From a bacterium (GTDB lineage: Bacteria > Myxococcota > UBA727 > JAUIJE01), in NCBI GenBank assembly GCA_030431455.1, contig JAUIJE010000005.1, positions 387,460-451,459 of the forward strand: a stretch of 64,000 bases of DNA, written 5' to 3'. The position numbers and the translations under genes are program-made. The notes under the pieces were generated by a model. That model was not told where the DNA came from. It saw nothing but the letters and a program-made list of their open reading frames with translations, and did not search any database. How positions within the stretch are numbered: the first letter of the stretch is position 1; each line of letters begins with the position of its first letter. Below, in pieces: positions 12,781 through 51,431 of this stretch.

Positions 12781-12867
12781 GCCGGAGTGGTGGAATTGGT
12801 AGACACGACGGATTCAAAATCCGTTGGGGGCGACCCCGTGTCGGTTCGAGTCCGACCTTCGGTACCA
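12781..12867 (+). tRNA. tRNA-Leu (anticodon CAA)
   Basis: 87 nt. Acceptor stem GCCGGAG/CTTCGGT (with G.U pairs). Anticodon stem ACGGA/TCCGT with loop TTCAAAA gives CAA. Long variable arm with a GGGG/CCCC stem. T-loop GGTTCGAGTCC. Discriminator A and encoded CCA. Confidence 0.85.
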
Positions 12868-12978: not shown

Positions 12979-14181
12979 ATGTCGCGGCTCGTGTTGGTGG
13001 TGGTGGTGGTGTGTTCGACGTTGGTGTGGGGCACGGGGTGTCCCCCCGCGGAGGGCTGTCTGGAAGATGAGTCGCGCGCCTGCACCTGCACCGACGGCAA
13101 CACCGGGGCCCAGGTGTGCCAGGCCGATGGCACCCTCGGCGAATGTATCTGCACAGGAGACGGGGATGGCGACGGGGATGGAGATGGAGATGGAGACGGT
13201 GACGGGGACGGAGATGGCGACGGAGATGGCGACGGGGATGGCGACGGGGATGGCGACGGGGATGGCCACGGGGATGGCGACGGGGATGGCGACGGGGATG
13301 GCGACGGGGATGGCGACGGGGATGGAGACCTGTGCGGCAACGGGGTGATCGACCCCGGCGAAGACTGCGACGGCGAGGCCCTGGGGGGCGCGGATTGCGG
13401 CAGCCAGGGCTACGACTTCGGGCTGCTCGGCTGCACCGACTGCGCGTTCGACGCGTCCGCGTGTGGGGACGGGTGTGGGCCCTACCCCGCCGCGCTCGAC
13501 GTCAGCGACGTGTGCCGGCAATGCGCCGACGCGCGGTGCTGTGACGAGCTGAGCGCTTGTGTCCCCGGGTCGGCGTGCGATGACTACAACGGCTGCGTCA
13601 CCGCCTGCGCGGACAACCCCGGCTGCGTGCTGCAGTGCGAGAGCGACTTCGCCGCGGGCAAGTTCGACGCGGACGCGCTCGCCGCCTGCGCCCCCTCCTG
13701 CGCGGGCCTGTGCAGTAACAATGGGGTGTGCGCGTCCTCGCTCACCACCACCTTCGACACCGTGGACACGTGCGTCGACGCCAACTGCTGCACGCCGTTT
13801 GACGCCTGCCTCGGCGACGACGCGTGCACCGCCTGCCTCACCGGCGGCACCCTGGCCCCCGGCTGCGACACCAACCCGCTGCTCAGCGACATGACCACCT
13901 GCCAGGAGACCTCGTGTCCCTCCTCGCTGTGCGGCTCACCGCTGAGCGTGAACACCATCGAGGGCGCGCCCCTCGTCGACTGCCACCTGTGCGTCGAGAA
14001 CGCGGGCTGTTGCGCCGACCTCGCGGACTGTTTGGGAGGGGGCACCGAGGACGAAGTCGCGGACTGCATCGCCTGCCTCAACGACGACCCGATCGAGTGT
14101 CCGGTGGGCCCGGTGCAAGACGCGGCCAACGCGTTCCTGGCCTGTCAGATGACCCCGTGCCAAGCCGCGTGCAGCCTTTGA
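12979..14181 (+). CDS. secreted Cys-rich lipoprotein with an (Asp-Gly)29 tract and a Myxococcus cysteine-rich repeat module
   Basis: ATG at 12979 preceded by GGGAGG. Signal [21 protein letters not shown]. Then GDGDGD... followed by [23 protein letters not shown] (TIGR02232-like). About 60 Cys in total. The track ORF 12769..14181 includes the tRNA and is over-extended. Confidence 0.7.
13156..13329 (+). repeat. tandem hexanucleotide repeat (GAYGGN)29 encoding (Gly-Asp)n, in frame inside the CDS
   Basis: Direct reading: gga gac ggg gat ggc gac ggg gat ... with one GHG interruption. Confidence 0.9.
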
Positions 14182-14238: not shown

Positions 14239-15189
14239 TTGGGCGAGCCTCGGCCCGGAGGGTCCGTGACGCCTGAGAAGTTCGGTGATTTCGAGCTTTT
14301 ATCGCTCCTTGCACAGGGGGGCATGGCCGAGTTGTTCCTCGCCCGGCACCGCCCCACCGAGCAGCTCGTCGTGGTCAAGCGCCTGCTCCCCGAGCTCGAA
14401 GAGCGACCGGACATCATCGACCTGTTCTTGACCGAAGCCGACATCGGCCGCCTCCTCCGCCACGAGAACGTCGTCCAGGTGCTCGACGGGGGCGAGGTCT
14501 CCGGCCGCTACTACCTGGTCATGGAGTACGTCGACGGCGTAGACGCCGAAATCCTGCTCAGCGATGCCACCCGCCGCGGCGATCCCATCGCCCCCCGCAT
14601 CATTGTGCGCCTCGCGGTCGACGCCCTGCGCGGCCTCCACGCCGCGCACATGCTGACCTCCCCGCAAGGGACGAGCTTTGGCCTCGTGCACCGGGATGTC
14701 AGCCCCGACAACATCTTCATCACCCGGGCGGGCGTGCCCAAGGTCGCCGACTTCGGCATCGCCAAGCTCGCGTCCCTCGAGGGGGTCACGTCGACGGGGC
14801 TGCTCAAGGGCAAGCTCACCTATATGTCCCCCGAGCAGGTGCAACAAAAGCCGCTCGATGGCCGCGCCGACGAGTTCGCGGTGGGGCTCATCGTGTACGA
14901 GATGCTCAGCGGCCAGCGCCCGTTTTCGCAAGCCGACGGCGAGACCGAGATCGACGCGCTGCTGCGGGTGCGCAAGGGCAAAGTCCCGCCGTTGCGCAAG
15001 CTCGAACCGGGCCTGCCCCGGGCCCTGTGCAAGGTCGTCGACAAAGCCCTGCGGCCGGGACGGTGGCGCCGGTACAAATCCTGCGGCGCCTTCGCCGACG
15101 CTCTCGAGGAAGTGGGCCAAGCCCACGACTTGCTCGGGTCCCACCAAGAGCTCGCCGCCCTCGTCGAGCGCGTGCAGGTGGGGGAATAA
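14239..15189 (+). CDS. Hanks-type serine/threonine protein kinase
   Basis: Gly-loop LAQGGMAELFLA. VVVKRL Lys. HRDVSPDNIF catalytic loop. DFG as KVADFGIAK. APE as TYMSPE. Alternative start GTG 14266 with GGAGGG SD. Confidence 0.85.
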   Translation: MGEPRPGGSVTPEKFGDFELLSLLAQGGMAELFLARHRPTEQLVVVKRLLPELEERPDIIDLFLTEADIGRLLRHENVVQVLDGGEVSGRYYLVMEYVDGVDAEILLSDATRRGDPIAPRIIVRLAVDALRGLHAAHMLTSPQGTSFGLVHRDVSPDNIFITRAGVPKVADFGIAKLASLEGVTSTGLLKGKLTYMSPEQVQQKPLDGRADEFAVGLIVYEMLSGQRPFSQADGETEIDALLRVRKGKVPPLRKLEPGLPRALCKVVDKALRPGRWRRYKSCGAFADALEEVGQAHDLLGSHQELAALVERVQVGE

Positions 15190-15214
15190 TGCCAATGCAT
15201 GGACGGGGCACGGC

Positions 15215-16795
15215 ATGACCGACGGACAGCTCGGCGGCAGCCTCGAGGACCTCGAGCTCGACGAGGTCGTTCGCGTCATCGGCCTCTCGCGCCGGTCTGG
15301 CATCCTCCTGGTCGAGGGTCCCTGGGGCCGGGCCGAGATGGTGTTCGTGGTGGGCCACATCCGGTCCGTGCGCCACTCCGCGTCGACGGAGACGGTGGCC
15401 GACGTGTTGCTGCGCGCGGGGGTGTTTCATCCCCATGACCTGGTGAGCGACCCCGGCCGCACCGTCGACGACATCCTCCGGGACAAGAGCCGCACCGCGG
15501 TGGACGCGGCCACCCGCGCCGACGATGCGCTCCTCGAGCACATGGAAAAGACCGTGCTCGACGTGTTCGCTTACCGGCAGGGCACGTTCCGCTTTTCCCT
15601 CACCGAGCCGGGCCCCTGCCCCGACCGGTACCCGCGCGACACCACGTACATCGTGGCCGAAGGCCTCGACGCCGAACAGACCTGTGAGCGGGCCAAAAAG
15701 CGCCGCGGCCGCGGCCGCCATTCGCTGACCAAGACCCCGGGGCGCGAGGCCGACCAAGCCCCGGAGATCCTGGTCGTCGACGACGACCCCCGCTTCCTCG
15801 ACCGGTGCGCCCGGGCCCTGGAGGGGGCCGGGGTCCCGTTCCAGACCCTCGACGACGCGCGCCAAGGGTTGGACGCCCTCGACGCCCTCGCCGACAACCC
15901 CCGCGCGGTGTTGATCCTCGACCTGGTCATGCCCCGCCCCAACGGACGGGGCCTGCTCGGGGGCTTGCATCTGTTGCGTTTGGCCAGCCAACAGGGGGTC
16001 GCGGACCGCGTGTACATGGCGTTCGATCGCGCCCACGACGACGCCCATTCGATCTGCCTCGAGCTCGGCGCGGCCCAGGTGCTGAAAAAGCCGTCCGGGG
16101 TGCAACCCATCGGCCTGATGTTCAACCCCGTGCTCGAGCACCTCGGCCGCCCCCCCCTCCTGGCCGAACCCATCGATCTGGTGGGCGAGCTGCGCCAAGA
16201 GCTGGGCGAATCCGCCACCGAGTGGTCGGCCGATCCCGACCTCGACCTCGACGACGCCGCCCGCGGCCTGGAGATCCTGAAGTCGCTCCTCGCCCAGGTC
16301 AACAACCCCACCTACGAAGAAGAGATTCCGCTGTTGCTGTTGCGGTTCTCGTCGGCGTTCTTCTCGCGGGGGGCCCTGTTTGTGCCCCACGAACCCGACA
16401 ACAAACTCATCGGGCTCGGCGGCTACGGCGTCGGGCAGGCCGACCCGGGGCGCACCATTCACGCGCTGCACATCCCCCTCGCCGCCGACACCGTGTTCTC
16501 GCGCGCGATGCGCGAAAACACCGGGGTGCGCCAACCCTTTTTCGAGAGCGAATGGAACCTCCGCCTCACCGAGGCCCTCGGCGGCCCCCGCCCCCGCGAG
16601 GTGTACACCGCGCCGTTGCTCAGCCCGCGCGGGGTCGAAGCCGTGCTCTACGCCGACAACGCCCTCGACGACCACCCGTTCCCCGACATCACCCTGCTGG
16701 AGATTTTTCTCCAGCAGGCCGGGGCCGCGCTGGAGCGTTCGGACCTGGTGCGTGAGGTGCGCAACCTCAGCCAGCCGCCGATGGACGCACGCTGA
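15215..16795 (+). CDS. PATAN (DUF4388) - receiver (REC) - GAF domain regulator
   Basis: N-terminus DLELDEVVRVIGLSRRSGILLVE is PATAN-like. ILVVDDDPRF...VLILDLVMP...KKP is CheY-like REC. A C-terminal GAF-like region follows. Its stop overlaps the next start (TGATG). Confidence 0.7.
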   Translation: MTDGQLGGSLEDLELDEVVRVIGLSRRSGILLVEGPWGRAEMVFVVGHIRSVRHSASTETVADVLLRAGVFHPHDLVSDPGRTVDDILRDKSRTAVDAATRADDALLEHMEKTVLDVFAYRQGTFRFSLTEPGPCPDRYPRDTTYIVAEGLDAEQTCERAKKRRGRGRHSLTKTPGREADQAPEILVVDDDPRFLDRCARALEGAGVPFQTLDDARQGLDALDALADNPRAVLILDLVMPRPNGRGLLGGLHLLRLASQQGVADRVYMAFDRAHDDAHSICLELGAAQVLKKPSGVQPIGLMFNPVLEHLGRPPLLAEPIDLVGELRQELGESATEWSADPDLDLDDAARGLEILKSLLAQVNNPTYEEEIPLLLLRFSSAFFSRGALFVPHEPDNKLIGLGGYGVGQADPGRTIHALHIPLAADTVFSRAMRENTGVRQPFFESEWNLRLTEALGGPRPREVYTAPLLSPRGVEAVLYADNALDDHPFPDITLLEIFLQQAGAALERSDLVREVRNLSQPPMDAR

Positions 16796-17754
16796 TGCGC
16801 GGGGGCCGCCCCGCCGTCACAGTGGCATTGGTCGCGGTCGCCGCCGCCTGCCCCGCCCCCTACCCCGACGTGGACGCCTGGACCGAGCTCGCCCCCCTCG
16901 GCGGCGGGCCTCGCCAGGAGAGCGCGGTGGTCAACCTGCGCGACGAGGTCGTGGTCGTGGGCGGGGTGGACGCGGCCTCCAACACCCTCGCCACCGTCGA
17001 GGCCTACGACGTGGCCGGCGACGCCTGGCGCCGCCTCGCGGACCTGCCGGTGACCGCCCATCACGCGCACGTCGCCAGCTGCGGCGACCGCTTGTTTGTG
17101 CTCGGGTTTCTGCAAGGGCTCTCGTTCACCCCTGACCCCCGCGGCTTCGTGTACGACCCCGACGACGACGCGTGGTCGCCGGTGGCGGCCTTGCCCGCGC
17201 CCCACGACCGCGGCGGCGGCATCGCGTTGTGCGCATCCGACGGCGTGTACGTCATCGGTGGCCTCGCCGGCAACCCCGTGGCCACCGTGCACCGCTACGA
17301 CCCCGACGCGGACAGCTATGCTCAATTGGCCGACCTCCCCGCGGTGACCGACCACCTCGTGGGCGGGGTGATCGACGACGAAATCTTCGTGGCCGGGGGG
17401 CGCAACCGGTCCATCCGCGCCCACCGGGCGGATGTGTGGCGCTACGACCGCGCCGGTGACGCCTGGGTCGCGGGGGCGGACATGCCCACCTCCCGGGCCG
17501 GGGCCGCGGCCGCGGTGTCGGGCGGCGAGCTGTTCGTGTTCGGCGGCGAGGGGGACGCAAACGCCTCGAGCGGGGTGTTCGCCGAGGTCGAGGCCTACGA
17601 CCCGGTCTCCGATACCTGGCGCGAGCTCGATGACATGCCCCGGCCGCGCCACGGCATGGGGGCCGCGGCCGTGGGCAATGCCATTTACATCCCCGGCGGG
17701 GCCGACGTGCAGGGCTTTGCCGCGATCTCGCTACACGACAAATTCACGCCCTAG
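16795..17754 (+). CDS. Kelch-repeat beta-propeller lipoprotein
   Basis: 319 aa. Signal ending AAAC. Six repeats with GG-x-YD/WxxxxxMP motifs. Confidence 0.75.
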   Translation: MRGGRPAVTVALVAVAAACPAPYPDVDAWTELAPLGGGPRQESAVVNLRDEVVVVGGVDAASNTLATVEAYDVAGDAWRRLADLPVTAHHAHVASCGDRLFVLGFLQGLSFTPDPRGFVYDPDDDAWSPVAALPAPHDRGGGIALCASDGVYVIGGLAGNPVATVHRYDPDADSYAQLADLPAVTDHLVGGVIDDEIFVAGGRNRSIRAHRADVWRYDRAGDAWVAGADMPTSRAGAAAAVSGGELFVFGGEGDANASSGVFAEVEAYDPVSDTWRELDDMPRPRHGMGAAAVGNAIYIPGGADVQGFAAISLHDKFTP

Positions 17755-17766
17755 CCCGCGGCGGGC

Positions 17767-19776
17767 TCAGCCGCGCCGGCGCGACCGACCGCGCCCGCCG
17801 CCACCGCCCCCCGAGCGGCCCCCGGAGCGCCCTCCCGAGCGACCACCCGACCGCGACCGCCGCGAACGACGGGGCCGGCTCGCGCGCTGGCCCTTCTTGG
17901 GTTGTTTGTACTTTTTGTTGTGGGCCTCGGCGACGACCTTCCACTTCTGGACCTCGGCGAAGTCGCCGCCCTCGGCCTGGGTCCGGATGATCAGCAGCAG
18001 CAAGGCATCGCGGAACCAGGGCCGGGACACCAACGACTTCGCCGGCGCGCCGTAACGCCAGCCGGGCAACAAGGACTCTTGGGCCCCGAGCAGCAGCCGC
18101 GCCGACTCCCGATCGCGCCGGGTCATGCGGATGCGCTCGGCCCACTTGTCCCCGATGTCGTCGACGAACTGGGCGCCATCGAGCCCGCCGGCCACCGCCG
18201 CGTCGTACGCGGGGGTGAGCAACACCGAGAGCGCGACCGCGCTGTTCACGTCCGCTTCGCGGGCCGCGACCTCGTCGAGGGCGCCGAGCAACTTGTCGAG
18301 CAGCTCCCAGCGGGCCGCGGGCTCGAGCGGCGCCGCGGGCACGGGGAGGCGACCGGGGTCGAGGTCGTCGTCCTGGTCGTCGCGTCGCTTGCCCCCTTTG
18401 TCCCCTTCGCTCCCCTCGGCGTCGCCGGACAGCTGGGCCGCGATCCCGACCACGTCGTCGTCGTCATCGTCGTCGTCCCCGTCATCGAAGCTGTCGATGT
18501 CCACCGTCTTGGGCCGCTCGCCCTCGGCCTGGGCCTCGGCCGCGTCCTCGGCTTTGGTCTCATCGTCGGCGGGGGCCGTGTCTTTCGAACCCGCGTCAGA
18601 CGCCGCCGCCTCCACCACCGGCGCCTGCCGGGCCGCGTCCATCGCCTCCACCAACTCGGGCAGCAACGTCTGGGTCACCCCGAAATCCGCGCACATCGCC
18701 ATCGCCTCGCGGGCGTGGCCCGAGGTCAAAAGCCGGTTGAGCTCTTCGAGCAGGCGGGCCGGCGCGCACCGCAGCAGCTCTTTGGCGTGCTCGCGCATCG
18801 CGCTTTTGACATCCTCGTCGAGGGTGAACCCCATGCGGGTGGCGAACTTGATCGCGCGCAGGATGCGCACCGGATCTTCTTGGAACCGGATGTGGGGGTC
18901 GCCGATGCTGCGCAACAGCCGCTTTTCGAGGTCCTCGCGGCCGTTGACGTAGTCGATGACCTTGCCCGCGATGGGGTCGTAGAACAGCCCGTTGATGGTG
19001 AAGTCGCGGCGCACCGCGTCCTCCTCGACGTTGCCGAACTCGTTGTCCCGCTCGACGAGCAGGTCCTGGTCCCCGGTGTCCTCGGTGGTCTCCTCGTCCC
19101 CGTCGCTGTCCCCGTCGCCGTCGTTGTCGTCCGGGGTCGGATTCTTCCGGAAGGTGGCGGTCTCGATCACCTTGCCCCCCGCGAACAACACGTGGGCCAG
19201 GCGGAAGCGGCGGCCCACCAGCCGGCAGTTGCGGAACACCGACTTGACCTCGTCGGGGTGGGCGGCGGTGGCCACGTCAAAATCCTTCGGTTCGCGCCCG
19301 AGCAACAAGTCGCGCACGCACCCCCCGGTGAGATACGCCTCGTGCCCCTTGGCCCGAAGACGGCGCACCACCCACAGCGCGTCGTTGTCGATCTTCTTGA
19401 GCGGAATCTCGGGGGGGTCGCCGCTCTCCTCGGCGCCTTGTTCGTCGTCGTCGTCGCGGTCGTCGTCCGCGTCGTCCCCTTCGCCGCCCCCTCGACGTCC
19501 CCGGGCCGCGGGGCGGGCGAGGCGCTCGGTGCGTTCGTCGTCGTCCGCATCATCGTCGCCCCCGTCGTCATCGTCGGCGTCATCCTCGTCGTCCGCGCCG
19601 TCGTCATCGTCGGCGGCCGAGGCCTGGGGTTCTTCTTCTTCCTCTTCCTCGTCGCTGTCGTCGCCGGAGGCCGCGGTCACGGGGCCGGACTCGGTGGAGA
19701 CCTCTTCGATCTCCATGGTCTCGGTGTCGTCGTGCTCAGCGTTGGTGTCTTTGTCATCTTGCATGGTCATGGCCAT
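17767..19776 (-). CDS. pcnB: poly(A) polymerase I with a ~250 aa acidic (D/E-rich) N-terminal extension and an Arg/Gly/Ser-rich C-terminal tail
   Basis: Head domain LTGGCVRDLLLGREPKDFDVAT. RRDFTINGLFYD. PcnB-type probe-binding region. Start MAMTMQDD chosen (cat 19774-19776). The track ORF extends to 20601 in frame but overlaps coaX. Tail (SGGR)n. Confidence 0.8.
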   Translation of the reverse strand: MAMTMQDDKDTNAEHDDTETMEIEEVSTESGPVTAASGDDSDEEEEEEEPQASAADDDDGADDEDDADDDDGGDDDADDDERTERLARPAARGRRGGGEGDDADDDRDDDDEQGAEESGDPPEIPLKKIDNDALWVVRRLRAKGHEAYLTGGCVRDLLLGREPKDFDVATAAHPDEVKSVFRNCRLVGRRFRLAHVLFAGGKVIETATFRKNPTPDDNDGDGDSDGDEETTEDTGDQDLLVERDNEFGNVEEDAVRRDFTINGLFYDPIAGKVIDYVNGREDLEKRLLRSIGDPHIRFQEDPVRILRAIKFATRMGFTLDEDVKSAMREHAKELLRCAPARLLEELNRLLTSGHAREAMAMCADFGVTQTLLPELVEAMDAARQAPVVEAAASDAGSKDTAPADDETKAEDAAEAQAEGERPKTVDIDSFDDGDDDDDDDDVVGIAAQLSGDAEGSEGDKGGKRRDDQDDDLDPGRLPVPAAPLEPAARWELLDKLLGALDEVAAREADVNSAVALSVLLTPAYDAAVAGGLDGAQFVDDIGDKWAERIRMTRRDRESARLLLGAQESLLPGWRYGAPAKSLVSRPWFRDALLLLIIRTQAEGGDFAEVQKWKVVAEAHNKKYKQPKKGQRASRPRRSRRSRSGGRSGGRSGGRSGGGGGGRGRSRRRG

Positions 19777-19784
19777 TGGTCCTG

Positions 19785-20585
19785 TTATTTGGCGGAACCG
19801 CCCGGGCCTTTGCGCCGGACATCGCGGTTCATGTCGTAGAGTATGCGGAGGCCGTCGAGGGTCAAAAACTCGTCGACGGTGTCGATGGTTCGACTTTCCT
19901 CCGCGATGAGGTGCGCGAGGCCACCGGTGGCCATCACCTTGGTGCCTTCGCCCAGTTCTTGTTGCATGCGGCCGGCGAGCTCGTCGACCAGACCGACATA
20001 TCCGTAAAAGAGCCCCGACTGGAGGGCCCCGATGGTGTTCTTTCCCACCACCCGCTGCGGCCGGCGAATCTCGACCCGCGGCAGCTTCGCCGCCCGGCGA
20101 AACAGCGCGTCCATCGAGACCACCACCCCGGGGGCGATGGCTCCCCCGAGGTAGGCGCCGTCTTCCCGCACCGCATCGAAGGTGGTCGCGGTCCCGAAGT
20201 CGACGACGATGAGCGCACACTTGAACCGGGTCCAAGCCGCCACCGCGTTGACGATGCGGTCCGCCCCCACCTCGGCCGGTTGGTCGGTGAGGATGGGCAT
20301 TTGGGTTTTGACCCCCGGGCCGACCACAATCGGCTCGAACCCGAAGTACCGCAGGCTCGCTTCTTCGAACGCACGGTTGAGCTGCGGCACGACGCTGGCG
20401 AGGATCACGCCCTCGATTTGCGTGGGCTCGACGCCCTGTCGCTCCAGCAGCGACAAGACGAGCGTCCCGTATTCGTCCGCGGTCCCCGACGCCATGGTCG
20501 AGATGCGGAAATGGTGCGTGAGCTGCTCGCCCTCGTAGAGGCCGAGCACGGTGTTGGTGTTGCCCACGTCGATGACCAGCAGCAT
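19785..20585 (-). CDS. coaX: type III pantothenate kinase
   Basis: MLLVIDVGNTNTVLGL. DFGTATTFD. GGLA. 266 aa. Confidence 0.9.
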   Translation of the reverse strand: MLLVIDVGNTNTVLGLYEGEQLTHHFRISTMASGTADEYGTLVLSLLERQGVEPTQIEGVILASVVPQLNRAFEEASLRYFGFEPIVVGPGVKTQMPILTDQPAEVGADRIVNAVAAWTRFKCALIVVDFGTATTFDAVREDGAYLGGAIAPGVVVSMDALFRRAAKLPRVEIRRPQRVVGKNTIGALQSGLFYGYVGLVDELAGRMQQELGEGTKVMATGGLAHLIAEESRTIDTVDEFLTLDGLRILYDMNRDVRRKGPGGSAK

Positions 20586-20615
20586 CTGCGCCGCTTAGCA
20601 CCCTCTTGGCGGGCG

Positions 20616-21413
20616 CTAAAGGGCGGCGTCGATCGCCCGGGCCACCGCCCAGGCGTCCGCCAGGGGGCCCACCTCGTGGGTGCGCAAAAAATCCACCCCC
20701 CGGGCCGCGCAGTGGATTTCCGCCGCCAGGGTCGCGGCCTGGGCGCTCTGGGCCCCTTTGCCGATGGTGCGCTGCAGAAAGCTCTTGCGCGACACGCTGA
20801 CCAGCACCCGCAAGCCATACCGGGCCCGGAGGTCCTCGATGTGGGCGAGCACGTGCATCGACACCGCGGGGTCGGTCCCGAGAAAAAACCCCATGCCCGG
20901 GTCGAGCACCAACCGCGCCTCGTCGACCCCCGCGCCGGTCAGCGCGCCGAGGCGTTGGTCAAAAAACCGCCACAAGCGGGGCCAAATCTCGTCGGGGCGC
21001 ACATCCGGCCGGGACGCGCGGCCGTCGGCGTCCACCGCGTGCATCACCACCAGGTCGGCGGCGGCGGCGGCCAGCGCGGGGTATAGGGCGGGGTACGGGA
21101 ACCCGCGCACGTCGTTGAGCATGCCCACCCCGCGCGACAGGGCGAAGCGCTGGGTCTCCGGCTCGTGGCTGTCGATGCTCACCCGGGACAGGTCGGGGCC
21201 CAGCGCGTCGAGCACGGGGCCGAGGCGCTCGATTTCGGTGGCGGCCGTGACCTGTTCGGCATCGGGGTGCGTCGACGACGGGCCGAGGTCGACGAAGGCC
21301 GCCCCCTCCGCGAACAGCCGGTGGGCGTGGGCCACCGCGTCGTCGGGCGCGAGGTACCGGCCCCCGTCCGAAAACGAGTCGCGCGTGATGTTGACGATGC
21401 CGAGGATGTCCAT
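20616..21413 (-). CDS. folP: dihydropteroate synthase
   Basis: ILGIVNITRDSFSDGG. Pterin-binding DHPS fold. 265 aa. Confidence 0.9.
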   Translation of the reverse strand: MDILGIVNITRDSFSDGGRYLAPDDAVAHAHRLFAEGAAFVDLGPSSTHPDAEQVTAATEIERLGPVLDALGPDLSRVSIDSHEPETQRFALSRGVGMLNDVRGFPYPALYPALAAAAADLVVMHAVDADGRASRPDVRPDEIWPRLWRFFDQRLGALTGAGVDEARLVLDPGMGFFLGTDPAVSMHVLAHIEDLRARYGLRVLVSVSRKSFLQRTIGKGAQSAQAATLAAEIHCAARGVDFLRTHEVGPLADAWAVARAIDAAL

Positions 21414-21456
21414 CCGCGCGGGTATACGCGCCCCGCGTCCTCGTGGACAGATGGGG

Positions 21457-22086
21457 CTAGACCGGCAAAACCGGCGGAAGCGCGGCGCAGGCCGCGCCGA
21501 CGACCAAGCCGAGCGAGGCCCCGGCGAGCACGTCGAGCGGGTAGTGCACGCCGAGGTACATGCGGGCGTACCCGACGACGACCGCGAGGGAGATGATCAG
21601 GGGGTAGACCGCGGGGGGCAACAGCGGGGCCCAGGCCACCGCCAGGGCGAGCGCGGCCGCGGTGTGGCCGGACGGGAACGAGAACTGGTCGGGCGGGACC
21701 AAGAGCCGCACGTCGAGCGCGGGCCGGGCCCGGCGCACCGCCCGCTTGAGCACGACGACGACCATCGAGCACGCGGTGAGCGTGATGATCGCGCGTTCGC
21801 CCAGGGCGGTGGCCCCGCCGAGGACGAGCACGCCCATCCACAGGGGCGCGACCATGGGGTCGAGCAGGCGGCACAACAGGGTGAGCACAAACGTGATCAC
21901 CGGCTGGCGGCGCCGCACCAGCCGCCGCAGCAAACGGTCGTCGAACGCGGCCAAGCGGGCCAGGCGCCCGACGGGCAACGCGCCCACCCCCGCGCCGTTC
22001 ACCAGGCCCGGGCCCGGCATCGCCAACGACCGCGCGTGGTGGGGCCGGGCGGGGGTGTGGTGGGCGCGGCGGCGCGAGGTCGACAT
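21457..22086 (-). CDS. PAP2-family (phosphatidic acid phosphatase type 2) membrane phosphatase
   Basis: KRAVRRARP...PSGHTAAA...HYPLDVLAG motifs. Several TM segments. The true start may be internal. Confidence 0.7.
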   Translation of the reverse strand: MSTSRRRAHHTPARPHHARSLAMPGPGLVNGAGVGALPVGRLARLAAFDDRLLRRLVRRRQPVITFVLTLLCRLLDPMVAPLWMGVLVLGGATALGERAIITLTACSMVVVVLKRAVRRARPALDVRLLVPPDQFSFPSGHTAAALALAVAWAPLLPPAVYPLIISLAVVVGYARMYLGVHYPLDVLAGASLGLVVGAACAALPPVLPV

Positions 22087-22109
22087 GGTGCTCTCCGTGT
22101 GCGGCCGGT

Positions 22110-23630
22110 GTGCCGCGGGTGGGAGATTCGTTCGCAGCGCGCGCGATTCGCCCTACACTCGCGAAGATGAGCAAGCCGGGTGCCATGTCGGGCGACGAGG
22201 TCACGCATCCCCTGCCCGGGGCCGCCACGCCCCTGTCGTTGCCGCCCGGCCCCCGCGCGGTGGCCGACGCGCTGTTGGCCGCCGGGGGCCGGCCCGTCGC
22301 GGTGGGCGGCTGCGTGCGCGACCACCTGCTCGGCCGGGACGCGCACGACATCGACATCGAGTGTTACGCGCTCGACGAGGCCGCGCTCACCACGGCGCTG
22401 GAGACGGTGGGGAGCGTACACGCGGTGGGGCGTTCGTTCGGGGTGCTCAAGGTCTCGGCCGCCGGCGAGGTCGTCGACGTGGCCCTGCCCCGGACCGAGA
22501 GCAAAGAGGGGCGCGGCCACCGCGGGTTTTTGGCCAGCGCCGACCCCCACTTGCCGTTCGAGGTCGCGGCCGCCCGGCGCGACTTCACCTGCAACGCGAT
22601 GGGCGTGGACCTGACGGACGGCGCCTTGCTCGACCCCCACGGGGGCCAGGCCGACCTGGCCGCGGGCCGTCTGCGCCACGTGTCACCCGCCTTCGCCGAA
22701 GACCCCTTGCGGGTGTTGCGCGCCTGCCAGTTCGCCGCGCGGTTCGCGTTGACCATCCATGATGACACATTGGCATTGTGCAAAAGCCTCGAGCCCGAGC
22801 TCGCCACCCTGCCCGCCGAGCGCCTGTACGAAGAGCTGAAGAAGGTGCTCCGCGCCCCCTGGCCGTCGTTGGGCTTGGCCGCCCTCGGTCCCACCGGCGC
22901 GCTCTCGCTCTTCCCCGAGCTCGCCGCGATGCAGAACGTCCCCCAAGAACCCGAGTGGCACCCCGAGGGCGACGTCTTCACCCACACCCTGCTCGTCGTC
23001 GACGAAGCCGCCCGCCTGTGCCGCCAACAAGCGCTCCCCGAGGACGAAGCCTTGCGCGTGCTGTTTGGCGCGCTGTGCCACGACCTGGGCAAGCCGGCCA
23101 CGACCACCCACGAAGACGGCCGCATCAAGAGCAAGAACCACGAATCGGAGGGCGAGCCCCCCACCCGCTCGTTCATGGCCCGGCTCGGCGCCCCCAAAGA
23201 CCTCGTCGACGACGTGGTCGACCTGGTGCGCGACCACCTCAAGCCCTTCCAGCTCTACAAGGACCGCGACGTCATCAAAGACGGCGCCATCCGACGCCTC
23301 GCGGTCCGCGTGCCCATCGATCGCTTGTGTCGCGTGGCCCGGGCCGACCACTTCGGCCGCACCACCAAAGAAGCCCTCGCCCACGACGACCCCGCCAGCC
23401 CTTGGCTGCAAAAACGCGCCCAAGACCTGCACGCCTACGACCAGCGCCCCCAACCGTTGCTCCAGGGCCGCCACCTCATCGCCCGCGGCCACAAGCCCGG
23501 CCGCGCCTTCCGCCCCGTGCTCGACGCGGCCTTCTCCGCCCAGCTCGACGGGGCCTTCGCCGACCTCGACGAGGCCGAGGCCTGGCTCGACGACCACATC
23601 GACCAACTGTTCGCCGAGGCCGAGGCCTGA
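22110..23630 (+). CDS. cca: CCA-adding tRNA nucleotidyltransferase with a C-terminal HD domain
   Basis: GGCVRDHLLGRDAHDIDIE head. RRDFTCNAM. HD domain HTLLVVDEA...LCHDLGKP. The start may be the internal ATG (MSKPGAMSG). Confidence 0.85.
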   Translation: MPRVGDSFAARAIRPTLAKMSKPGAMSGDEVTHPLPGAATPLSLPPGPRAVADALLAAGGRPVAVGGCVRDHLLGRDAHDIDIECYALDEAALTTALETVGSVHAVGRSFGVLKVSAAGEVVDVALPRTESKEGRGHRGFLASADPHLPFEVAAARRDFTCNAMGVDLTDGALLDPHGGQADLAAGRLRHVSPAFAEDPLRVLRACQFAARFALTIHDDTLALCKSLEPELATLPAERLYEELKKVLRAPWPSLGLAALGPTGALSLFPELAAMQNVPQEPEWHPEGDVFTHTLLVVDEAARLCRQQALPEDEALRVLFGALCHDLGKPATTTHEDGRIKSKNHESEGEPPTRSFMARLGAPKDLVDDVVDLVRDHLKPFQLYKDRDVIKDGAIRRLAVRVPIDRLCRVARADHFGRTTKEALAHDDPASPWLQKRAQDLHAYDQRPQPLLQGRHLIARGHKPGRAFRPVLDAAFSAQLDGAFADLDEAEAWLDDHIDQLFAEAEA

Positions 23631-46062: not shown

Positions 46063-48452
<2,390 letters not shown>

Positions 48453-48642
48453 TCAGAACGTGTACCCAGAACGGGCCCCAACGCAAACTGGGCCTGCCGT
48501 CCGATGCGTCGCAGAAAGCCCTGATTTTCGACACAATTTTGTCAATTGAAGATGTACTTACATAAGTACGTTTCCAGCCCCGCCCGGGATCCTTCCGTCC
48601 CCCCCGCGCCGCAACCGCGCCCGCCGCAGCTAACATCGCGCC

Positions 48643-49341
48643 ATGGACCGGCTCTTCGCCCACCACCCCGCCGCGCTCGCGCCCGCCGCCGCCGCCGCGC
48701 TCGCGGCCTGGGTGCGCCACAGTGGCCACCTCGGCCAGAGCCAACTGCGGGGCACGTTTCGCGCGTCGCGCGGCTTCGGCCTGACGTTCACCGACGACAA
48801 CCGCGCGGATCTGCTCGAACGATTCCCCCGCTTGGCCCTCTTCTTGTCGCTGTGCCCGGCCAAGAGCCCGTTTTTGCCCCACCGCCGGCCCAACGCGTTT
48901 TACCTCAACGCCCTGTTCTTGGAGGCGGGCGCGGGGGTGGGCCTGCACGTCGACAGCACCCTCGGCGAGCCCGTCGGCGACGAACAAAAGAGCCCCGAGG
49001 TGGTCACGGTGCTGTACCTCGAGACCCCGGCCGCCGGGGGCCGGCTCGACCTTTTTCTCGGCCGGCGGCCGGTGCTCGACCTCACCCCCGGGGCCGGCGA
49101 CCTCCTGCATTTCCGCGGGGACCTCGGCCACCGGGTCACGCCCGTGACCGCCGGCGCCCGGTTGTCGCTCGTGCTCGAGCAGTATGACCTCACGCCCGCC
49201 GAGCGCGCGGGCCTCCCCGGCTTGGTGCTGCATTCGCGGGGGGACCGCGTGTACCCCCCCACGCCCCCGGGGCCGGGCTTTGACCGGGTGCTCGCCCGCA
49301 AACGGAAAACTGGCGTCCCGGGCGGCGCAAAAGCAGAATAG
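48643..49341 (+). CDS. 2OG-Fe(II) oxygenase superfamily protein
   Basis: GVGLHVDST (HxD), ...HFRGDLGHRVTPV (distal His), ...RLSL. Divergent from the PAD-like gene. Confidence 0.6.
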   Translation: MDRLFAHHPAALAPAAAAALAAWVRHSGHLGQSQLRGTFRASRGFGLTFTDDNRADLLERFPRLALFLSLCPAKSPFLPHRRPNAFYLNALFLEAGAGVGLHVDSTLGEPVGDEQKSPEVVTVLYLETPAAGGRLDLFLGRRPVLDLTPGAGDLLHFRGDLGHRVTPVTAGARLSLVLEQYDLTPAERAGLPGLVLHSRGDRVYPPTPPGPGFDRVLARKRKTGVPGGAKAE

Positions 49342-49346
49342 GCGCG

Positions 49347-51431
49347 GTGAGCCGGCCCCGCGGAGTCCCCGAAGGTGCATCCTTTTCTGAAGAGGAAAAG
49401 GCCTGGATCATCGGTTCGCAAAAAGGCGGCCAGCCGCACGGCCCGCACACCAAATGGAACGACGCGGGCAAGAAGGTCGAGGAGCTGCGGTACCGCGAGG
49501 GCGTGCTGCACGGACCCTTCCGGCGCTTTTTCGACAACGGCGAGCTGCGCGAAGAGGGCAACTACCGCAACGGCGAAATCAACGGGCTGTGCACCACCCA
49601 CCGGAACCCCAAAGGCGACGGGCCCCCGCCGCACGAAGACGTGGCCGACGTGGTGGTCACCACCGAGGTCGAATACAACATGGGGCGCCCCCTCACGGTG
49701 CGGCACTTCGACAAGAAGAAGCGCCGGGTGCTCGCCGACGGCACCCCCCTGCCCGAGCATCCCAAAGGCGTGCCCTCGGTGGCCGACTACGACGGGGACC
49801 AAGAGCGGTGGTTCCACGGGCAGACCACCAAAGACGGCCAGCGCACCGGCTTTTGGATGGCCTGGACCAAAGACGGCACCCTCGTCGAAGAGACCGAGTA
49901 CCACGAGGGTGAGCTTGACGGGGTCAGCCGCCTCTACGCCGACAACGGCACCCTCATCGAGGAGGGGACCTACGTCGAGGGCAAGCGCACCGGCACGTGG
50001 TCCACCTTCGACCCCAAGGACGGCCGGCTGCTCACCAAGGCCGATTACGACGACGGCCAGTACCATGGTTCGGTGATCGAGTACGGGCCCGACGGCCGAT
50101 CCCGGGTCCGCATCGAGTACGACTTCGGCAAAAAGAGCGGCCAGTACCTCGCCCGCATCGGGAAGGACAAATACAAAGGCGGCCGCATCCGGGTCGAGAA
50201 CGGCACCTTCAAGGACGACCAACCGGTGGGCCGCTGGAAGCTGCTCAACAAGAAGCTCGAGCCCGTGGTCACCATCGACTTCGGGGTGCCCAAGACCGAC
50301 GAGGAAGAGCTCAAGGGCTCGCCGGTGTTCGAGGACCGGCCGCACACCCAACAGCATTGGCAAGAGCTCTACGATCAGCTCCAAGGCGCCCGGAGCGTGG
50401 GGGAGTCGCTCCTCGCCGCGGCCCGGCGCTACGCGGTCACCGACGACGGGGCCGCGTTGCAGGTGCTGTTCGAGGAGGCCTGTGCCCCCCTCACCGACAA
50501 GGGCGCACAGACATTGGCGGAAGAGGTCATCGCGGCCGAAGGCGGCCGCTATTGTTCGCTCACCAACGCCCTGGTGCGCGGGGCGCGGCCGGACACCATC
50601 CTCCAGCAGGTGGCCAAGAACCTCGACCGCGAAGGCAAAAGCCGGGTCGCCTACGATTTTGCCAAAGCCGCGGTCCTGCTCCGCGACCAAGAGCCCTCGC
50701 TCTATTTCACCCGCGCCCTCATCGCCATCAACCTCGGCGAGCAACGGGCGGCCGAGGCCGACGCCCGGGTGCTCGAGAACAACGACGCGGACAACGCGGC
50801 GTTCTTGCTGCAGCTGGTGCGGGTGCTGTTCCCCGATTTTGATTTCTGGCCCGAGCGGCTGCTCATCGACGGGGACGAGCGCGAGGTGCGCTGCGTGCGC
50901 GACGCCGCCGCCATCGGCGAACAGATCCGAATCCTGGCCACGCGTTTTCAGCATCTCCGCCGGGCGGTGCTCGCGCGCATGGACTCGGTGCAGCCGTGGC
51001 TGCCCCCCGACGTGACCCCGTTGATCAAAGACGGCGAGGTCGCGGTCCCCGACGACGCCGCGGCCCTGCCCGACGGCGACGGCATGCTCACCACGTTGCT
51101 GGTCGCGGTCCGCGCTCACTGGGCCGCGATCTGTTGGCTGTGCTGGGCCGCGGGCGAACACCGCCCCGCCCTGCCCCTCGACGTGCGCCCCCCGCTCGAC
51201 CTCGGGGCGCTGTGCACCATGCTCGAACAGCGCCTGGCCGCGACCCGGGCCATGGAACGCGGCGACGAGCCGGACGACGCCTTCACCTGGGAGCGCATCG
51301 CCTCGGCGGACATGAACCCGCACATCGCGGGCATCGCCCGCCAGGAGTTCGAAGAGGCCCTGGCCCACATCCGCTGGTTGGTCGACGACAACATCCCGTC
51401 GCCCCATCACGAGAGCGCGCGCGGGGCCTGA
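49347..51431 (+). CDS. MORN-repeat protein with a large C-terminal helical domain
   Basis: N-terminal ~270 aa of repeated GxxxGxWxxxxxxGxxxxExxY MORN/YwqK-like units. C-terminal 400 aa uncharacterised. Confidence 0.55.
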   Translation: MSRPRGVPEGASFSEEEKAWIIGSQKGGQPHGPHTKWNDAGKKVEELRYREGVLHGPFRRFFDNGELREEGNYRNGEINGLCTTHRNPKGDGPPPHEDVADVVVTTEVEYNMGRPLTVRHFDKKKRRVLADGTPLPEHPKGVPSVADYDGDQERWFHGQTTKDGQRTGFWMAWTKDGTLVEETEYHEGELDGVSRLYADNGTLIEEGTYVEGKRTGTWSTFDPKDGRLLTKADYDDGQYHGSVIEYGPDGRSRVRIEYDFGKKSGQYLARIGKDKYKGGRIRVENGTFKDDQPVGRWKLLNKKLEPVVTIDFGVPKTDEEELKGSPVFEDRPHTQQHWQELYDQLQGARSVGESLLAAARRYAVTDDGAALQVLFEEACAPLTDKGAQTLAEEVIAAEGGRYCSLTNALVRGARPDTILQQVAKNLDREGKSRVAYDFAKAAVLLRDQEPSLYFTRALIAINLGEQRAAEADARVLENNDADNAAFLLQLVRVLFPDFDFWPERLLIDGDEREVRCVRDAAAIGEQIRILATRFQHLRRAVLARMDSVQPWLPPDVTPLIKDGEVAVPDDAAALPDGDGMLTTLLVAVRAHWAAICWLCWAAGEHRPALPLDVRPPLDLGALCTMLEQRLAATRAMERGDEPDDAFTWERIASADMNPHIAGIARQEFEEALAHIRWLVDDNIPSPHHESARGA

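What the first reader, a model, noticed from the sequence alone, without database searches (positions are those of the whole stretch)
17767..23630. Unusual PcnB: ~250 aa poly-acidic N-terminal extension and (SGGR)n tail; second NTase (cca) 2.3 kb away
The poly(A) polymerase ORF is open for ~270 codons upstream of the catalytic head. It encodes runs such as EEEEEEE, DDDDGADDEDDADDDDGGDDDADDDE and DDGDDDDDDDD. The only 8 nt gap to coaX supports the long form. The C-terminus ends in RSGGRSGGRSGGRSGGGGGGRGRSRRRG, encoded by a 12-nt DNA repeat at 17770-17850. Such intrinsically disordered acidic and RGG-like segments are typical of eukaryotic RNA-binding or condensate proteins, not bacterial PcnB. 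The CCA-adding enzyme, coaX, folP and a PAP2 phosphatase are interleaved.
Basis: seen in the sequence. Interest (0 to 1): 0.5.

Follow-up and report, generated by a model that had tools for sequence, protein, structure and literature searches.

The report
Poly(A) polymerase with charged disordered appendages
This is a genuine bacterial poly(A) polymerase (PcnB) whose normal enzyme core carries a 122-residue acidic head extension, a second acidic insert and a glycine-arginine tail; the extension is half as long as first reported and is shared by a whole clade of related bacteria, so it is an uncharacterised lineage trait, not a one-off oddity.

Summary
The gene is real: window 19776..17767 (-), 669 aa. 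It passes the PcnB subfamily model, carries the PAP I signature LVGRRFRLAHV, and its model best matches E. coli PAP I. All the quoted acidic and RSGG runs exist.

Two corrections:
- The N-terminal extension is 122 aa, not about 250. The further 275 open codons upstream overlap coaX and are not coding in this frame (GC3 0.43).
- The DDGDDDDDDDD run lies in a separate 110-aa acidic insert between the neck and leg domains.

The long form is supported. There is no ATG/GTG/TTG between codons 33 and 135, codon usage is gene-like, and coaX-pcnB abutment is conserved in five relatives.

The architecture is not unique. 74 of the 120 closest homologues have an acidic N-extension (62-173 aa, 33% D/E), a long insert and an RG-rich tail. 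Myxococcus and Corallococcus PcnB also have acidic N-extensions.

AlphaFold2 predicts all three appendages disordered. The protein's pI is 4.4, against 7.6-8.8 for short forms.

The nearby cca is an ordinary HD-domain CCA enzyme, and its proximity is not conserved.

Function of the appendages is inferred only; electrostatic tuning of RNA binding is my preferred reading. Verdict: an undescribed variant of a known enzyme, of moderate interest.

The parts
17767..19776 (-). pcnB coding sequence, 669 aa plus stop: poly(A) polymerase I homologue
   Evidence: ORF and start. TIGR01942 pcnB 330 bits against cutoff 305.65. Pfam PolyA_pol, PolyA_pol_RNAbd and PolyA_pol_arg_C. PAP I signature LVGRRFRLAHV at residue 186. 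Foldseek top hit is E. coli PAP I 3AQL, TM 0.78.
19411..19776 (-). Acidic N-terminal extension, residues 1-122 (36 D, 20 E, 1 K, 7 R; net charge -48)
   Evidence: Composition and GC1/2/3 of 0.84/0.43/0.82. GAC:GAT is 30:6, as in real genes. pLDDT about 37-51 over residues 1-110. No canonical in-frame start between codons 33 and 135. Period-3 and longer tandem arrays at 19442-19619.
18622..19410 (-). Folded head and neck domains, residues 123-385 (catalytic GGCVRD...DFD, RRD, EDPVR motifs)
   Evidence: Aligns to E. coli PAP I 3AQM residues 12-259. pLDDT above 90 except in the loop. Invariant columns.
19066..19140 (-). Acidified flexible loop of the head domain, residues 213-237 (PTPDDNDGDGDSDGDEETTEDTGDQ), about 11 residues longer than in close relatives
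   Evidence: Alignment gap in relatives. pLDDT 53-64. Tandem repeats at 19069-19128.
18292..18621 (-). Second acidic disordered insert between the neck and leg domains, residues 386-495 (26 D, 10 E; net -25). Contains DDGDDDDDDDD.
   Evidence: Composition. E. coli spans this gap with about 92 residues against 187 here. pLDDT 41-57 over about residues 390-470. The insert is present in long-form relatives and absent in short forms.
17917..18291 (-). Folded C-terminal (leg) domain, residues 496-620
   Evidence: PF12626 match to residues 538-642. pLDDT 95-98.
17770..17916 (-). Basic glycine/arginine-rich tail, residues 621-669 (15 R, 5 K, 15 G, no D/E; net +20), ending (RSGG)4-G6-RGRSRRRG
   Evidence: Composition. 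pLDDT falls from 70 to 43 after about residue 635. Homologous RG-rich tails in 74 relatives.
17806..17850 (.). 12-nt tandem DNA repeat encoding the RSGG units (3.8 copies, 81% match)
   Evidence: Tandem Repeats Finder. Sequence read directly; the copies differ at synonymous Gly positions.
19785..20585 (-). coaX (type III pantothenate kinase), immediately upstream; its stop lies 8 nt before the pcnB ATG
   Evidence: Pfam Pan_kinase, E 3e-76. The same adjacency occurs in five relatives, with a 4-nt overlap in two of them.
20616..21413 (-). folP-like pterin-binding enzyme, same strand
   Evidence: Pfam Pterin_bind, E 1.3e-55. Not a conserved neighbour in relatives.
21457..22086 (-). PAP2-family phosphatase, same strand
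   Evidence: Pfam PAP2, E 5.4e-20.
22110..23630 (+). cca-like class II nucleotidyltransferase with HD domain, divergently transcribed. The likely start is ATG 22167 or 22185 rather than GTG 22110.
   Evidence: Pfam PolyA_pol, PolyA_pol_RNAbd and HD. Best NCBIfam hit is the multifunctional CCA addition/repair protein, below its cutoff. No PAP I signature; it has AVGRSFGVLKV instead.

Best explanation
Shown. The gene encodes a true PAP I (PcnB) orthologue. It comes from a high-GC lineage that looks like Myxococcota. It is translated from the ATG that abuts coaX. Its folded head, neck and leg domains are conventional. Three low-complexity segments predicted to be disordered are attached:
- a 122-aa acidic N-terminal extension (net -48);
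- a 110-aa acidic insert between neck and leg (net -25);
- a roughly 35-49-aa Gly/Arg-rich basic tail (net +20).
The three appendages occur together in a whole clade of relatives. Their charge density is kept while their sequence drifts.

Inferred. The RG-rich tail is a lineage-specific elaboration of the arginine-rich, RNA-binding C-terminus known from E. coli PAP I, and it serves to capture RNA 3' ends. The acidic segments act as built-in polyanionic competitors. They would shield the basic tail and the RNA path, lower non-specific RNA binding, and so restrain a potentially harmful polyadenylation activity. This is the logic of the acidic C-terminal tips of Hfq. They may also offer docking sites for partners, because most relatives carry conserved short motifs inside the extension.

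The neighbouring cca is the cell's ordinary CCA-adding/repair enzyme and is not functionally coupled to pcnB.
For: Identity:
- TIGR01942 scores above its cutoff.
- Three PAP Pfam domains match.
- The PAP I signature is present in PcnB and absent from Cca.
- The sequence match to E. coli PAP I has E 4e-62.
- The top fold match is 3AQL.

Long form is real:
- The start codon map shows no canonical start between codons 33 and 135.
- GC3 is 0.82-0.95 in frame, against 0.43 for the open frame upstream of the ATG.
- GAC is preferred over GAT, as in neighbouring genes.
- coaX abuts or overlaps the long-form start in L081 and L084-L087.

Lineage trait:
- 74 of 121 aligned proteins have an N-extension of 62-173 aa with D/E 0.33 +/- 0.05 and K/R 0.045.
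- Their median insert is 92 aa, against 28 aa in short forms.
- Their tails have a median of 13 Gly, against 2 in short forms.
- N-extension length and insert length correlate (Spearman rho 0.80).
- The closest relative, P0003, has an extension of 122 aa, like the window protein. Of 51 identical aligned positions, only 17 are not D or E. Core identity is 182 of 263.
- Myxococcus and Corallococcus have acidic extensions: 32-36 D/E and 3-4 K/R in the 100 aa before the head domain.

Disorder: pLDDT is about 37-57 in all three appendages and above 95 in the core.

Charge: pI is 4.44 for the full protein and 12 for the tail. Short-form homologues have pI 7.6-8.8.

Conserved motifs in relatives: [VIL][VIL]DE[SA]x[FW] occurs in 51 of 74 long forms and xPxHFxxV in 47 of 74.

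Precedent for acidic-tail autoregulation of a bacterial RNA-binding protein: Hfq (PMC5606850).
Against: - No experiment or computation here shows any contact between the acidic segments and the tail or the RNA path.
- AlphaFold2 gives no confident docking of the extension, either in the window protein or in P0017, a relative that carries both motifs.
- The window protein lacks the two conserved motifs. It has only ...DDDERTERLARP..., a low-confidence helix at residues 81-87.
- Within the long forms alone, N-extension charge does not track tail charge (rho 0.06). N-extension plus insert against tail gives only rho -0.34. Neither value is corrected for phylogeny.
- The total acidic charge (-73 in the two segments) far exceeds what is needed to neutralise a +20 tail.
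- The tandem DNA repeats in these segments fit simple slippage expansion.
- An ATT codon encodes I124 at the domain boundary. E. coli pcnB is known to start at AUU (established knowledge), so a short isoform cannot be excluded, although no Shine-Dalgarno-like sequence precedes the ATT.
Confidence: 0.55

Rival explanations
1. The appendages are functionally neutral low-complexity expansions. Replication slippage of GAC/GAG-rich and GGN/CGN-rich repeats has inflated permissive termini and an inter-domain linker. The clade tolerates them, and the enzyme works like any PAP I.
For: - Tandem arrays of period 3-36 cover the acidic segments and the tail.
- Lengths vary from 62 to 173 aa, and the sequence is barely alignable even with the closest relative.
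- AlphaFold2 finds no structure or docking.
- The window protein lacks the conserved motifs.
- Other proteins in the window also carry long dipeptide (GD)n repeats, so this genome tolerates such expansions.
Against: - The trait persists across relatives with only about 45-55% identity to the window protein.
- Acidic fraction stays in a narrow band (0.33 +/- 0.05) and K/R is nearly excluded.
- The three appendages co-occur (rho 0.80 for N-extension against insert length).
- Most relatives keep two short hydrophobic motifs inside the extension.
- Extension length is identical (122 aa) in the closest relative despite sequence turnover.
- No other ORF in the window (GC3 above 0.8) exceeds 15 D/E in 30 residues, and the two at 15 are (GD)n runs. 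PcnB reaches 21 of 30.
Confidence: 0.28
2. The acidic blocks plus the RG-rich tail make the enzyme a polyampholyte. It would partition into, or help to build, RNA-protein condensates (degradosome or BR-body-like assemblies). The layout resembles nucleolin: acidic stretches, an RNA-handling core, and a GAR tail.
For: - Blocks of opposite charge are segregated: net -48, -25 and +20.
- All three are predicted disordered.
- RG-rich tails with true RGG repeats occur in relatives.
The resemblance to nucleolin and to the charge-patterned C-terminal domain of RNase E rests on general knowledge, not on a test made here.
Against: - The protein as a whole is strongly acidic (net -68, pI 4.4). That favours self-repulsion over self-association.
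- The window tail has no strict RGG triplet.
- There are no data on localisation or partners.
Confidence: 0.12
3. The long ORF is an annotation artefact. The real protein would start at a non-canonical codon next to the head domain (for example ATT encoding I124), and the acidic region would be a 5' leader.
For: - I124 is encoded by ATT.
- E. coli pcnB uses an AUU start (established knowledge).
- The Shine-Dalgarno match before ATG1 is weak.
Against: - No Shine-Dalgarno-like sequence precedes ATT124.
- Codon-position GC and GAC preference in the extension are those of coding sequence.
- The frame is kept open, acidic and of similar length in dozens of relatives.
- Most of those relatives keep peptide motifs in the extension.
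- coaX-pcnB overlaps of 4 nt at the long-form start in two relatives indicate coupled translation.
Confidence: 0.05

Closest known systems
Escherichia coli poly(A) polymerase I (PcnB; PDB 3AQK/3AQL/3AQM)
   Same: - Class II nucleotidyltransferase head, neck and leg domains.
- The PAP I signature motif.
- An arginine-rich C-terminus.
- The best sequence match (E 4e-62) and the best fold match (TM 0.78).
   Different: - The E. coli-type equivalog model NF008634 is not reached (238 against 702 bits).
- The window protein has a 122-aa acidic N-extension, an extra insert of about 95 aa between neck and leg, and a Gly-rich rather than purely Arg/Lys-rich tail.
- Its overall pI is 4.4. I did not compute the pI of the E. 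coli enzyme; short-form homologues in this search have pI 7.6-8.8.
PcnB of Myxococcus and Corallococcus (loci L007, L010, L013)
   Same: - The PAP I signature.
- An acidic N-terminal extension of about 110-140 aa, with 32-36 D/E and 3-4 K/R in the 100 aa before the head domain.
   Different: - Only 54-57% identity in the core.
- The tail is a poly-Arg run (8-9 R) followed by an acidic Ser/Gly/Glu tip, not an RG repeat.
- There is no long neck-leg insert.
- coaX is not adjacent.
Uncultured 'Deltaproteobacteria/Myxococcales' PcnB clade (for example P0001-P0057 and P0111)
   Same: The same three-appendage design and coaX-pcnB synteny. These are the closest relatives, at 45-55% overall identity and up to 72% in the core.
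   Different: - Most carry two conserved short motifs around the poly-D run that the window protein lacks.
- Many have strict RGG repeats in the tail.
- The window protein is at the acidic extreme: net -68 against a median of -27.5.
Hfq acidic C-terminal domain (autoregulation of RNA binding)
   Same: A disordered acidic segment attached to a bacterial RNA-binding protein that competes with RNA for basic surfaces (PMC5606850). This is the mechanistic model adopted here.
   Different: It is an unrelated protein. The acidic tip of Hfq is short, and nothing was tested here for PcnB.
Eukaryotic nucleolin-type acidic-stretch plus GAR/RGG proteins
   Same: Long Asp/Glu runs at one end and a Gly/Arg-rich tail at the other end of an RNA-handling protein. 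This resemblance is recalled from general knowledge.
   Different: - There is no homology.
- The core is a nucleotidyltransferase, not RRM domains.
- The window tail is RSGG/RG and has no strict RGG motif.

Membership tests
Bacterial poly(A) polymerase I (PcnB, class II nucleotidyltransferase) | Head domain with GGxVRD and the DxD catalytic carboxylates | tested here: met
   PF01743, E 9.6e-35. GGCVRD at residues 151-156. D165, D167 and E205 are invariant across 121 homologues.
Bacterial poly(A) polymerase I (PcnB, class II nucleotidyltransferase) | PAP I signature [LIV][LIV]G[RK][RK]Fx[LIV]h[HLQ][LIV] (Martin and Keller, as quoted in PMC13514080) | tested here: met
   LVGRRFRLAHV at residue 186. 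It is absent from the neighbouring Cca.
Bacterial poly(A) polymerase I (PcnB, class II nucleotidyltransferase) | Curated family model score above threshold | tested here: met
   TIGR01942 pcnB subfamily scores 330 bits against a cutoff of 305.65. The E. coli-type equivalog NF008634 is not reached, at 238 against 702 bits.
Bacterial poly(A) polymerase I (PcnB, class II nucleotidyltransferase) | Neck RNA-binding domain and arginine-rich C-terminal region | tested here: met
   PF12627, E 5.4e-16. PF12626 scores 24.5 bits against a cutoff of 22, which is marginal.
Bacterial poly(A) polymerase I (PcnB, class II nucleotidyltransferase) | Overall fold like solved PAP I | tested here: met
   The AF2 core has pLDDT above 95. 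Foldseek's best hit is 3AQL_A, E 5e-22, TM (target) 0.78, ahead of all CCA enzymes.
Bacterial poly(A) polymerase I (PcnB, class II nucleotidyltransferase) | Template-independent poly(A) synthesis on RNA 3' ends | not testable with these tools
   This needs an enzyme assay. No PAP from this clade has been assayed, to my knowledge. PMC13514080 lists only a pcnB transcript for Myxococcus xanthus.
CCA-adding enzyme with HD domain (the neighbouring gene at 22110-23630) | Class II head domain plus a C-terminal HD phosphohydrolase domain, with no PAP signature | tested here: met
   PF01743, PF12627 and PF01966 all match. The PAP signature is absent.
CCA-adding enzyme with HD domain (the neighbouring gene at 22110-23630) | Curated equivalog score | tested here: inconclusive
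   The best model, NF008137 (multifunctional CCA addition/repair protein), scores 222.6 bits against a cutoff of 451.
RGG/GAR-motif RNA-binding tails (eukaryotic definition: repeated RGG or RG closely spaced) | At least two or three RGG triplets separated by 0-4 residues | tested here: not met
   The tail reads RSGGRSGGRSGGRSGGGGGGRGRSRRRG. It has no RGG triplet, only GGR/RSGG units and a few RG dipeptides. Several relatives do have strict RGG repeats.

The most novel reading that the evidence does not exclude
The acidic N-extension, the acidic insert and the RG tail together form a conserved regulatory module of PAP I that is specific to this Myxococcota-like clade. In this reading the polyanionic segments mimic RNA and gate the basic tail and active-site cleft. 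The short motifs found in most relatives ([VIL][VIL]DE[SA]x[FW] ... poly-D ... xPxHFxxVA) recruit a partner such as a ribonuclease, a helicase or Hfq. That would give bacteria a nucleolin-like, charge-patterned way of controlling RNA polyadenylation, possibly through condensates.
Probability: 0.2. Interest if true: 0.55.

Novelty: new variant of a known kind. Interest (0 to 1): 0.35.

Why it matters
PAP I activity must be kept low and selective, because uncontrolled polyadenylation destabilises RNA. How bacteria other than E. coli regulate it is almost unknown. A clade-wide design would be a testable example of regulation by disordered regions in a bacterial RNA-decay enzyme. That design is a conserved catalytic core wrapped in a strongly acidic head extension, an acidic linker and a Gly/Arg tail, giving pI 4.4 against about 8 in short forms. 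It would parallel the acidic tail of Hfq. The most recent survey of PAP I distribution (PMC13514080) does not mention these extensions.

If the segments prove to be neutral slippage products, the case is still useful. It warns against reading eukaryote-like low-complexity sequence in high-GC bacteria as functional.

Tried and rejected
1. Rejected: the extra 275 open codons overlap coaX and have non-coding GC3.

2. An internal canonical start. None exists between codons 33 and 135. The near-cognate ATT124 has no Shine-Dalgarno-like sequence.

3. Misannotated CCA or A-adding enzyme. Rejected by the PAP signature, the TIGR01942 score and the fold ranking.

4. Functional coupling of pcnB with cca, folP or PAP2. 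Only coaX is a conserved neighbour.

5. A genome-wide acidic (halophile-like) proteome. Neighbouring genes have 12% D/E. No other ORF in the window (GC3 above 0.8) exceeds 15 D/E in 30 residues, and the two at 15 are (GD)n runs; PcnB reaches 21.

6. Intramolecular docking of the extension. AlphaFold2 gave low confidence for the extension in both the window protein and the motif-bearing relative P0017.

7. Identifying the source organism.
The best named hits were only 54-58% identical: Anaeromyxobacteraceae, Myxococcus, Corallococcus and Archangium.
   - The cluster look-up gave no organism names.
   - The taxon therefore remains 'Myxococcota-like'. This rests on named MAG hits (Deltaproteobacteria/Myxococcales) and on synteny with L081.

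8. Rfam and the promoter scan found nothing relevant in the region. Rfam's only match is the tRNA at 12781. There were no sigma-70-like sites. The eight terminator-like hits all lie inside coding sequence.

9. A link between the protein-arginine deiminase homologue in the window and the Arg-rich tail. Rejected as unlikely, because that protein has a lipoprotein signal and is probably extracytoplasmic.

Full report
**What is there.** The minus-strand ORF listed as 17767..20601 is open for 944 codons. The gene proper starts at ATG 19776, giving 669 aa. That ATG lies 8 nt after the TAA of coaX; two more ATGs follow at codons 3 and 5. The 275 codons upstream of this ATG overlap coaX in another frame. 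They have GC at codon positions 1/2/3 of 0.86/0.69/0.43, which is not coding in this frame. The five segments of the 669-aa gene have GC3 of 0.80-0.95.

The conserved head domain begins at PEIPLKKIDNDALWVV. Residue 124 aligns with residue 12 of the E. coli PAP I crystal construct. The extension is 122 aa.

**Identity.**
- Pfam finds the PolyA_pol head domain (E 9.6e-35), the PolyA_pol_RNAbd neck (E 5.4e-16) and, marginally, the arginine-rich C-terminus PF12626 (24.5 against 22 bits).
- NCBIfam TIGR01942 (pcnB subfamily) scores 330 bits against a cutoff of 305.65. The E. coli-type equivalog model is not reached.
- The diagnostic PAP I signature is present as LVGRRFRLAHV at residue 186.
- The best PDB sequence match is E. 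coli PAP I (E 4e-62).
- The AlphaFold2 model's best fold match is also E. coli PAP I, 3AQL, with TM 0.78 normalised to the target. It ranks ahead of every CCA-adding enzyme.

I file the protein as a PcnB-family member. Its enzyme activity is untested.

**The appendages** (unless stated):

| Segment | Residues | Composition | Net charge |
|---|---|---|---|
| N-terminal extension | 1-122 | 36 D, 20 E, 8 K/R | -48 |
| Neck-leg insert | 386-495 | 26 D, 10 E | -25 |
| C-terminal tail | 621-669 | 15 R, 5 K, 15 G, no D/E | +20 |

It roughly doubles the neck-to-leg spacing relative to E. coli.
- The tail ends (RSGG)4-G6-RGRSRRRG.
- The flexible loop of the head domain (residues 213-237) is also acidified and is about 11 residues longer than in relatives.
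- Against neighbouring genes (12% D/E, 17% R+G) the enrichments have binomial P of about 4e-20, 2e-8 and 3e-12.
- Tandem Repeats Finder confirms the 12-nt repeat at 17806-17850. It also finds period-3 to period-36 arrays throughout the acidic parts.
- The whole protein has pI 4.44. Short-form homologues have pI 7.6-8.8.
- AlphaFold2, run with 121 sequences, gives pLDDT above 95 for the folded domains. It gives 37-51 for residues 1-110, 41-57 for about residues 390-470, and 43-52 beyond residue 640. All three appendages are therefore predicted disordered.

**Is the extension translated?**
- There is no ATG, GTG or TTG in frame between codon 33 and codon 135. Codon 136 is already inside the first helix of the head domain.
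- Asp codons in the extension are 30 GAC to 6 GAT, similar to the core (24:4) and to neighbouring genes (152:12).
- In five independent relatives coaX sits directly upstream of the long-form start. In two of them the genes overlap by 4 nt.
- One caveat remains. I124 is encoded by ATT, and E. coli pcnB famously starts at AUU (established knowledge). No Shine-Dalgarno-like sequence precedes the ATT here. A minor short isoform cannot be excluded without experiment.

**Relatives.**
- No near-identical protein exists in the 5.8-billion-cluster collection. The best hits are 45-55% identical overall, and up to 72% in the core.
- Of 121 aligned sequences, 74 have an N-extension of 62-173 aa. Their D/E fraction is 0.33 +/- 0.05 and their K/R fraction 0.045.
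- These long forms have a median insert of 92 aa, against 28 aa in short forms. Their tails have a median of 13 Gly, against 2.
- N-extension length and insert length correlate (Spearman rho 0.80), so the appendages travel together. This figure is not corrected for phylogeny.
- The closest relative is P0003 (CoaX 70% identical; Kelch and DUF4388/response-regulator genes lie downstream of pcnB as in the window). Its extension is 122 aa, the same length as the window protein's. Only 17 identical aligned positions in the extension are not D or E. The core is 182/263 identical.
- In cultured Myxococcaceae (Myxococcus eversor, Corallococcus coralloides, Myxococcus sp. 1LA) PcnB also has an acidic extension, with 32-36 D/E and 3-4 K/R in the 100 residues before the head. 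Their tail is poly-Arg followed by an acidic Ser/Gly/Glu tip, and coaX is not adjacent.
- Anaeromyxobacteraceae, Acidobacteriota and gammaproteobacterial PcnB lack the acidic extension.
- The design is therefore a lineage trait, not a peculiarity of this genome. The window protein sits at the acidic extreme, with net -68 against a clade median of -27.5.

**An unexpected detail in the relatives.** Most long forms keep two short hydrophobic motifs flanking the poly-Asp run. [VIL][VIL]DE[SA]x[FW] occurs in 51 of 74, and xPxHFxxV(A) in 47 of 74. A smaller group has poly-D followed by xHLAR. This argues that the extension is more than filler in the clade. The window protein has only DDDERTERLARP at that place, modelled as a low-confidence helix at residues 81-87. 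AlphaFold2 did not dock the motifs of relative P0017 onto its core; pLDDT there is 43-49. If they are functional, they more likely bind a partner or act as fuzzy contacts.

**How it most likely works.**
- Shown: a conventional PAP I core with three conserved-in-kind disordered charged appendages.
- Inferred: the Gly/Arg tail extends the known arginine-rich RNA-binding C-terminus of PAP I.
- Inferred: the acidic extension and insert act as intramolecular polyanions that compete with RNA for the tail and the basic RNA path. This would lower non-specific binding and restrain polyadenylation, as shown for the acidic C-terminal domain of Hfq (PMC5606850).
- The weak points are listed under evidence against. 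There is no predicted contact, far more negative charge than a +20 tail requires, and no correlation within the clade between N-extension charge and tail charge.
- Rivals: neutral slippage expansion (about 0.28), a condensate-forming polyampholyte (about 0.12) and a mis-called start (about 0.05).

**The rest of the finding.**
- The second nucleotidyltransferase (22110/22167-23630, plus strand) has head, neck and HD domains. It has no PAP signature (AVGRSFGVLKV instead). Its best match is the multifunctional CCA addition/repair model.
- Having both PcnB and Cca is the normal complement in E. coli (established knowledge).
- No second NTase gene lies within 8 kb of pcnB in the five relatives examined.
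- PAP2, folP, coaX and pcnB lie on one strand and may be co-transcribed. Only coaX-pcnB is conserved.

**Literature.** A 2026 survey of PAP I distribution lists PAP I in Myxococcota (Enhygromyxa salina) and a pcnB transcript in Myxococcus xanthus. It contains neither 'acidic' nor 'extension' (PMC13514080). I found no paper describing these appendages.

**Verdict.** The gene, the runs, the repeat and the neighbours are right. The extension length is about twice overstated, and one run is misplaced. This is a new variant of a known kind: a clade-wide, undescribed set of disordered decorations on PAP I. Interest is moderate (0.35).

Noticed in passing
window 46066-49407 (-); likely start at [21 protein letters not shown]; (GD)n at 48166-48357: A large predicted lipoprotein. 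It has a run of about 64 aa of Gly-Asp dipeptide repeats, then Cys-rich modules, then a C-terminal protein-arginine deiminase (PAD, PF03068) domain with E 5.7e-67. This is the PAD family best known from vertebrates (general knowledge), so a strong bacterial match stood out.
   Followed up: partly
window 12979-14181 (+); (GD)n at 13156-13329: A second predicted lipoprotein (signal [21 protein letters not shown]). It has about 58 aa of Gly-Asp repeats followed by a Cys-rich region, with no significant Pfam domain. The same repeat-linker design recurs in this genome.
   Followed up: partly
relatives P0010-P0111 (N-terminal extensions); window residues 78-90 (about 19507-19545): Two conserved short motifs flank the poly-Asp run in most long-form PcnB relatives: [VIL][VIL]DE[SA]x[FW] and xPxHFxxVA. 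A subgroup has xHLAR instead. The window protein keeps only ...ERTERLARP... These could be partner-docking motifs.
   Followed up: partly
window 17767-22086 (-): pcnB lies downstream of a folate gene (folP) and a CoA/pantothenate gene (coaX). In E. coli, pcnB is followed by folK and the pan genes (established knowledge). The recurrence of this metabolic neighbourhood in a distant lineage is curious. Only coaX-pcnB is conserved in the relatives examined.
   Followed up: partly
window 12781-12867 (+): tRNA-Leu(CAA) with an encoded 3' CCA. It is the only Rfam or ARAGORN hit in the 64-kb window.
   Followed up: yes
window 14678-17754 (+) and locus L081 12422-15036: A DUF4388/PatA_N response-regulator protein and a Kelch-repeat protein lie downstream of pcnB, convergent with it. 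The same two gene types follow pcnB in the closest relative's contig (GCA_046766335.1), separated from it there by two extra genes. So synteny extends beyond coaX-pcnB.
   Followed up: partly
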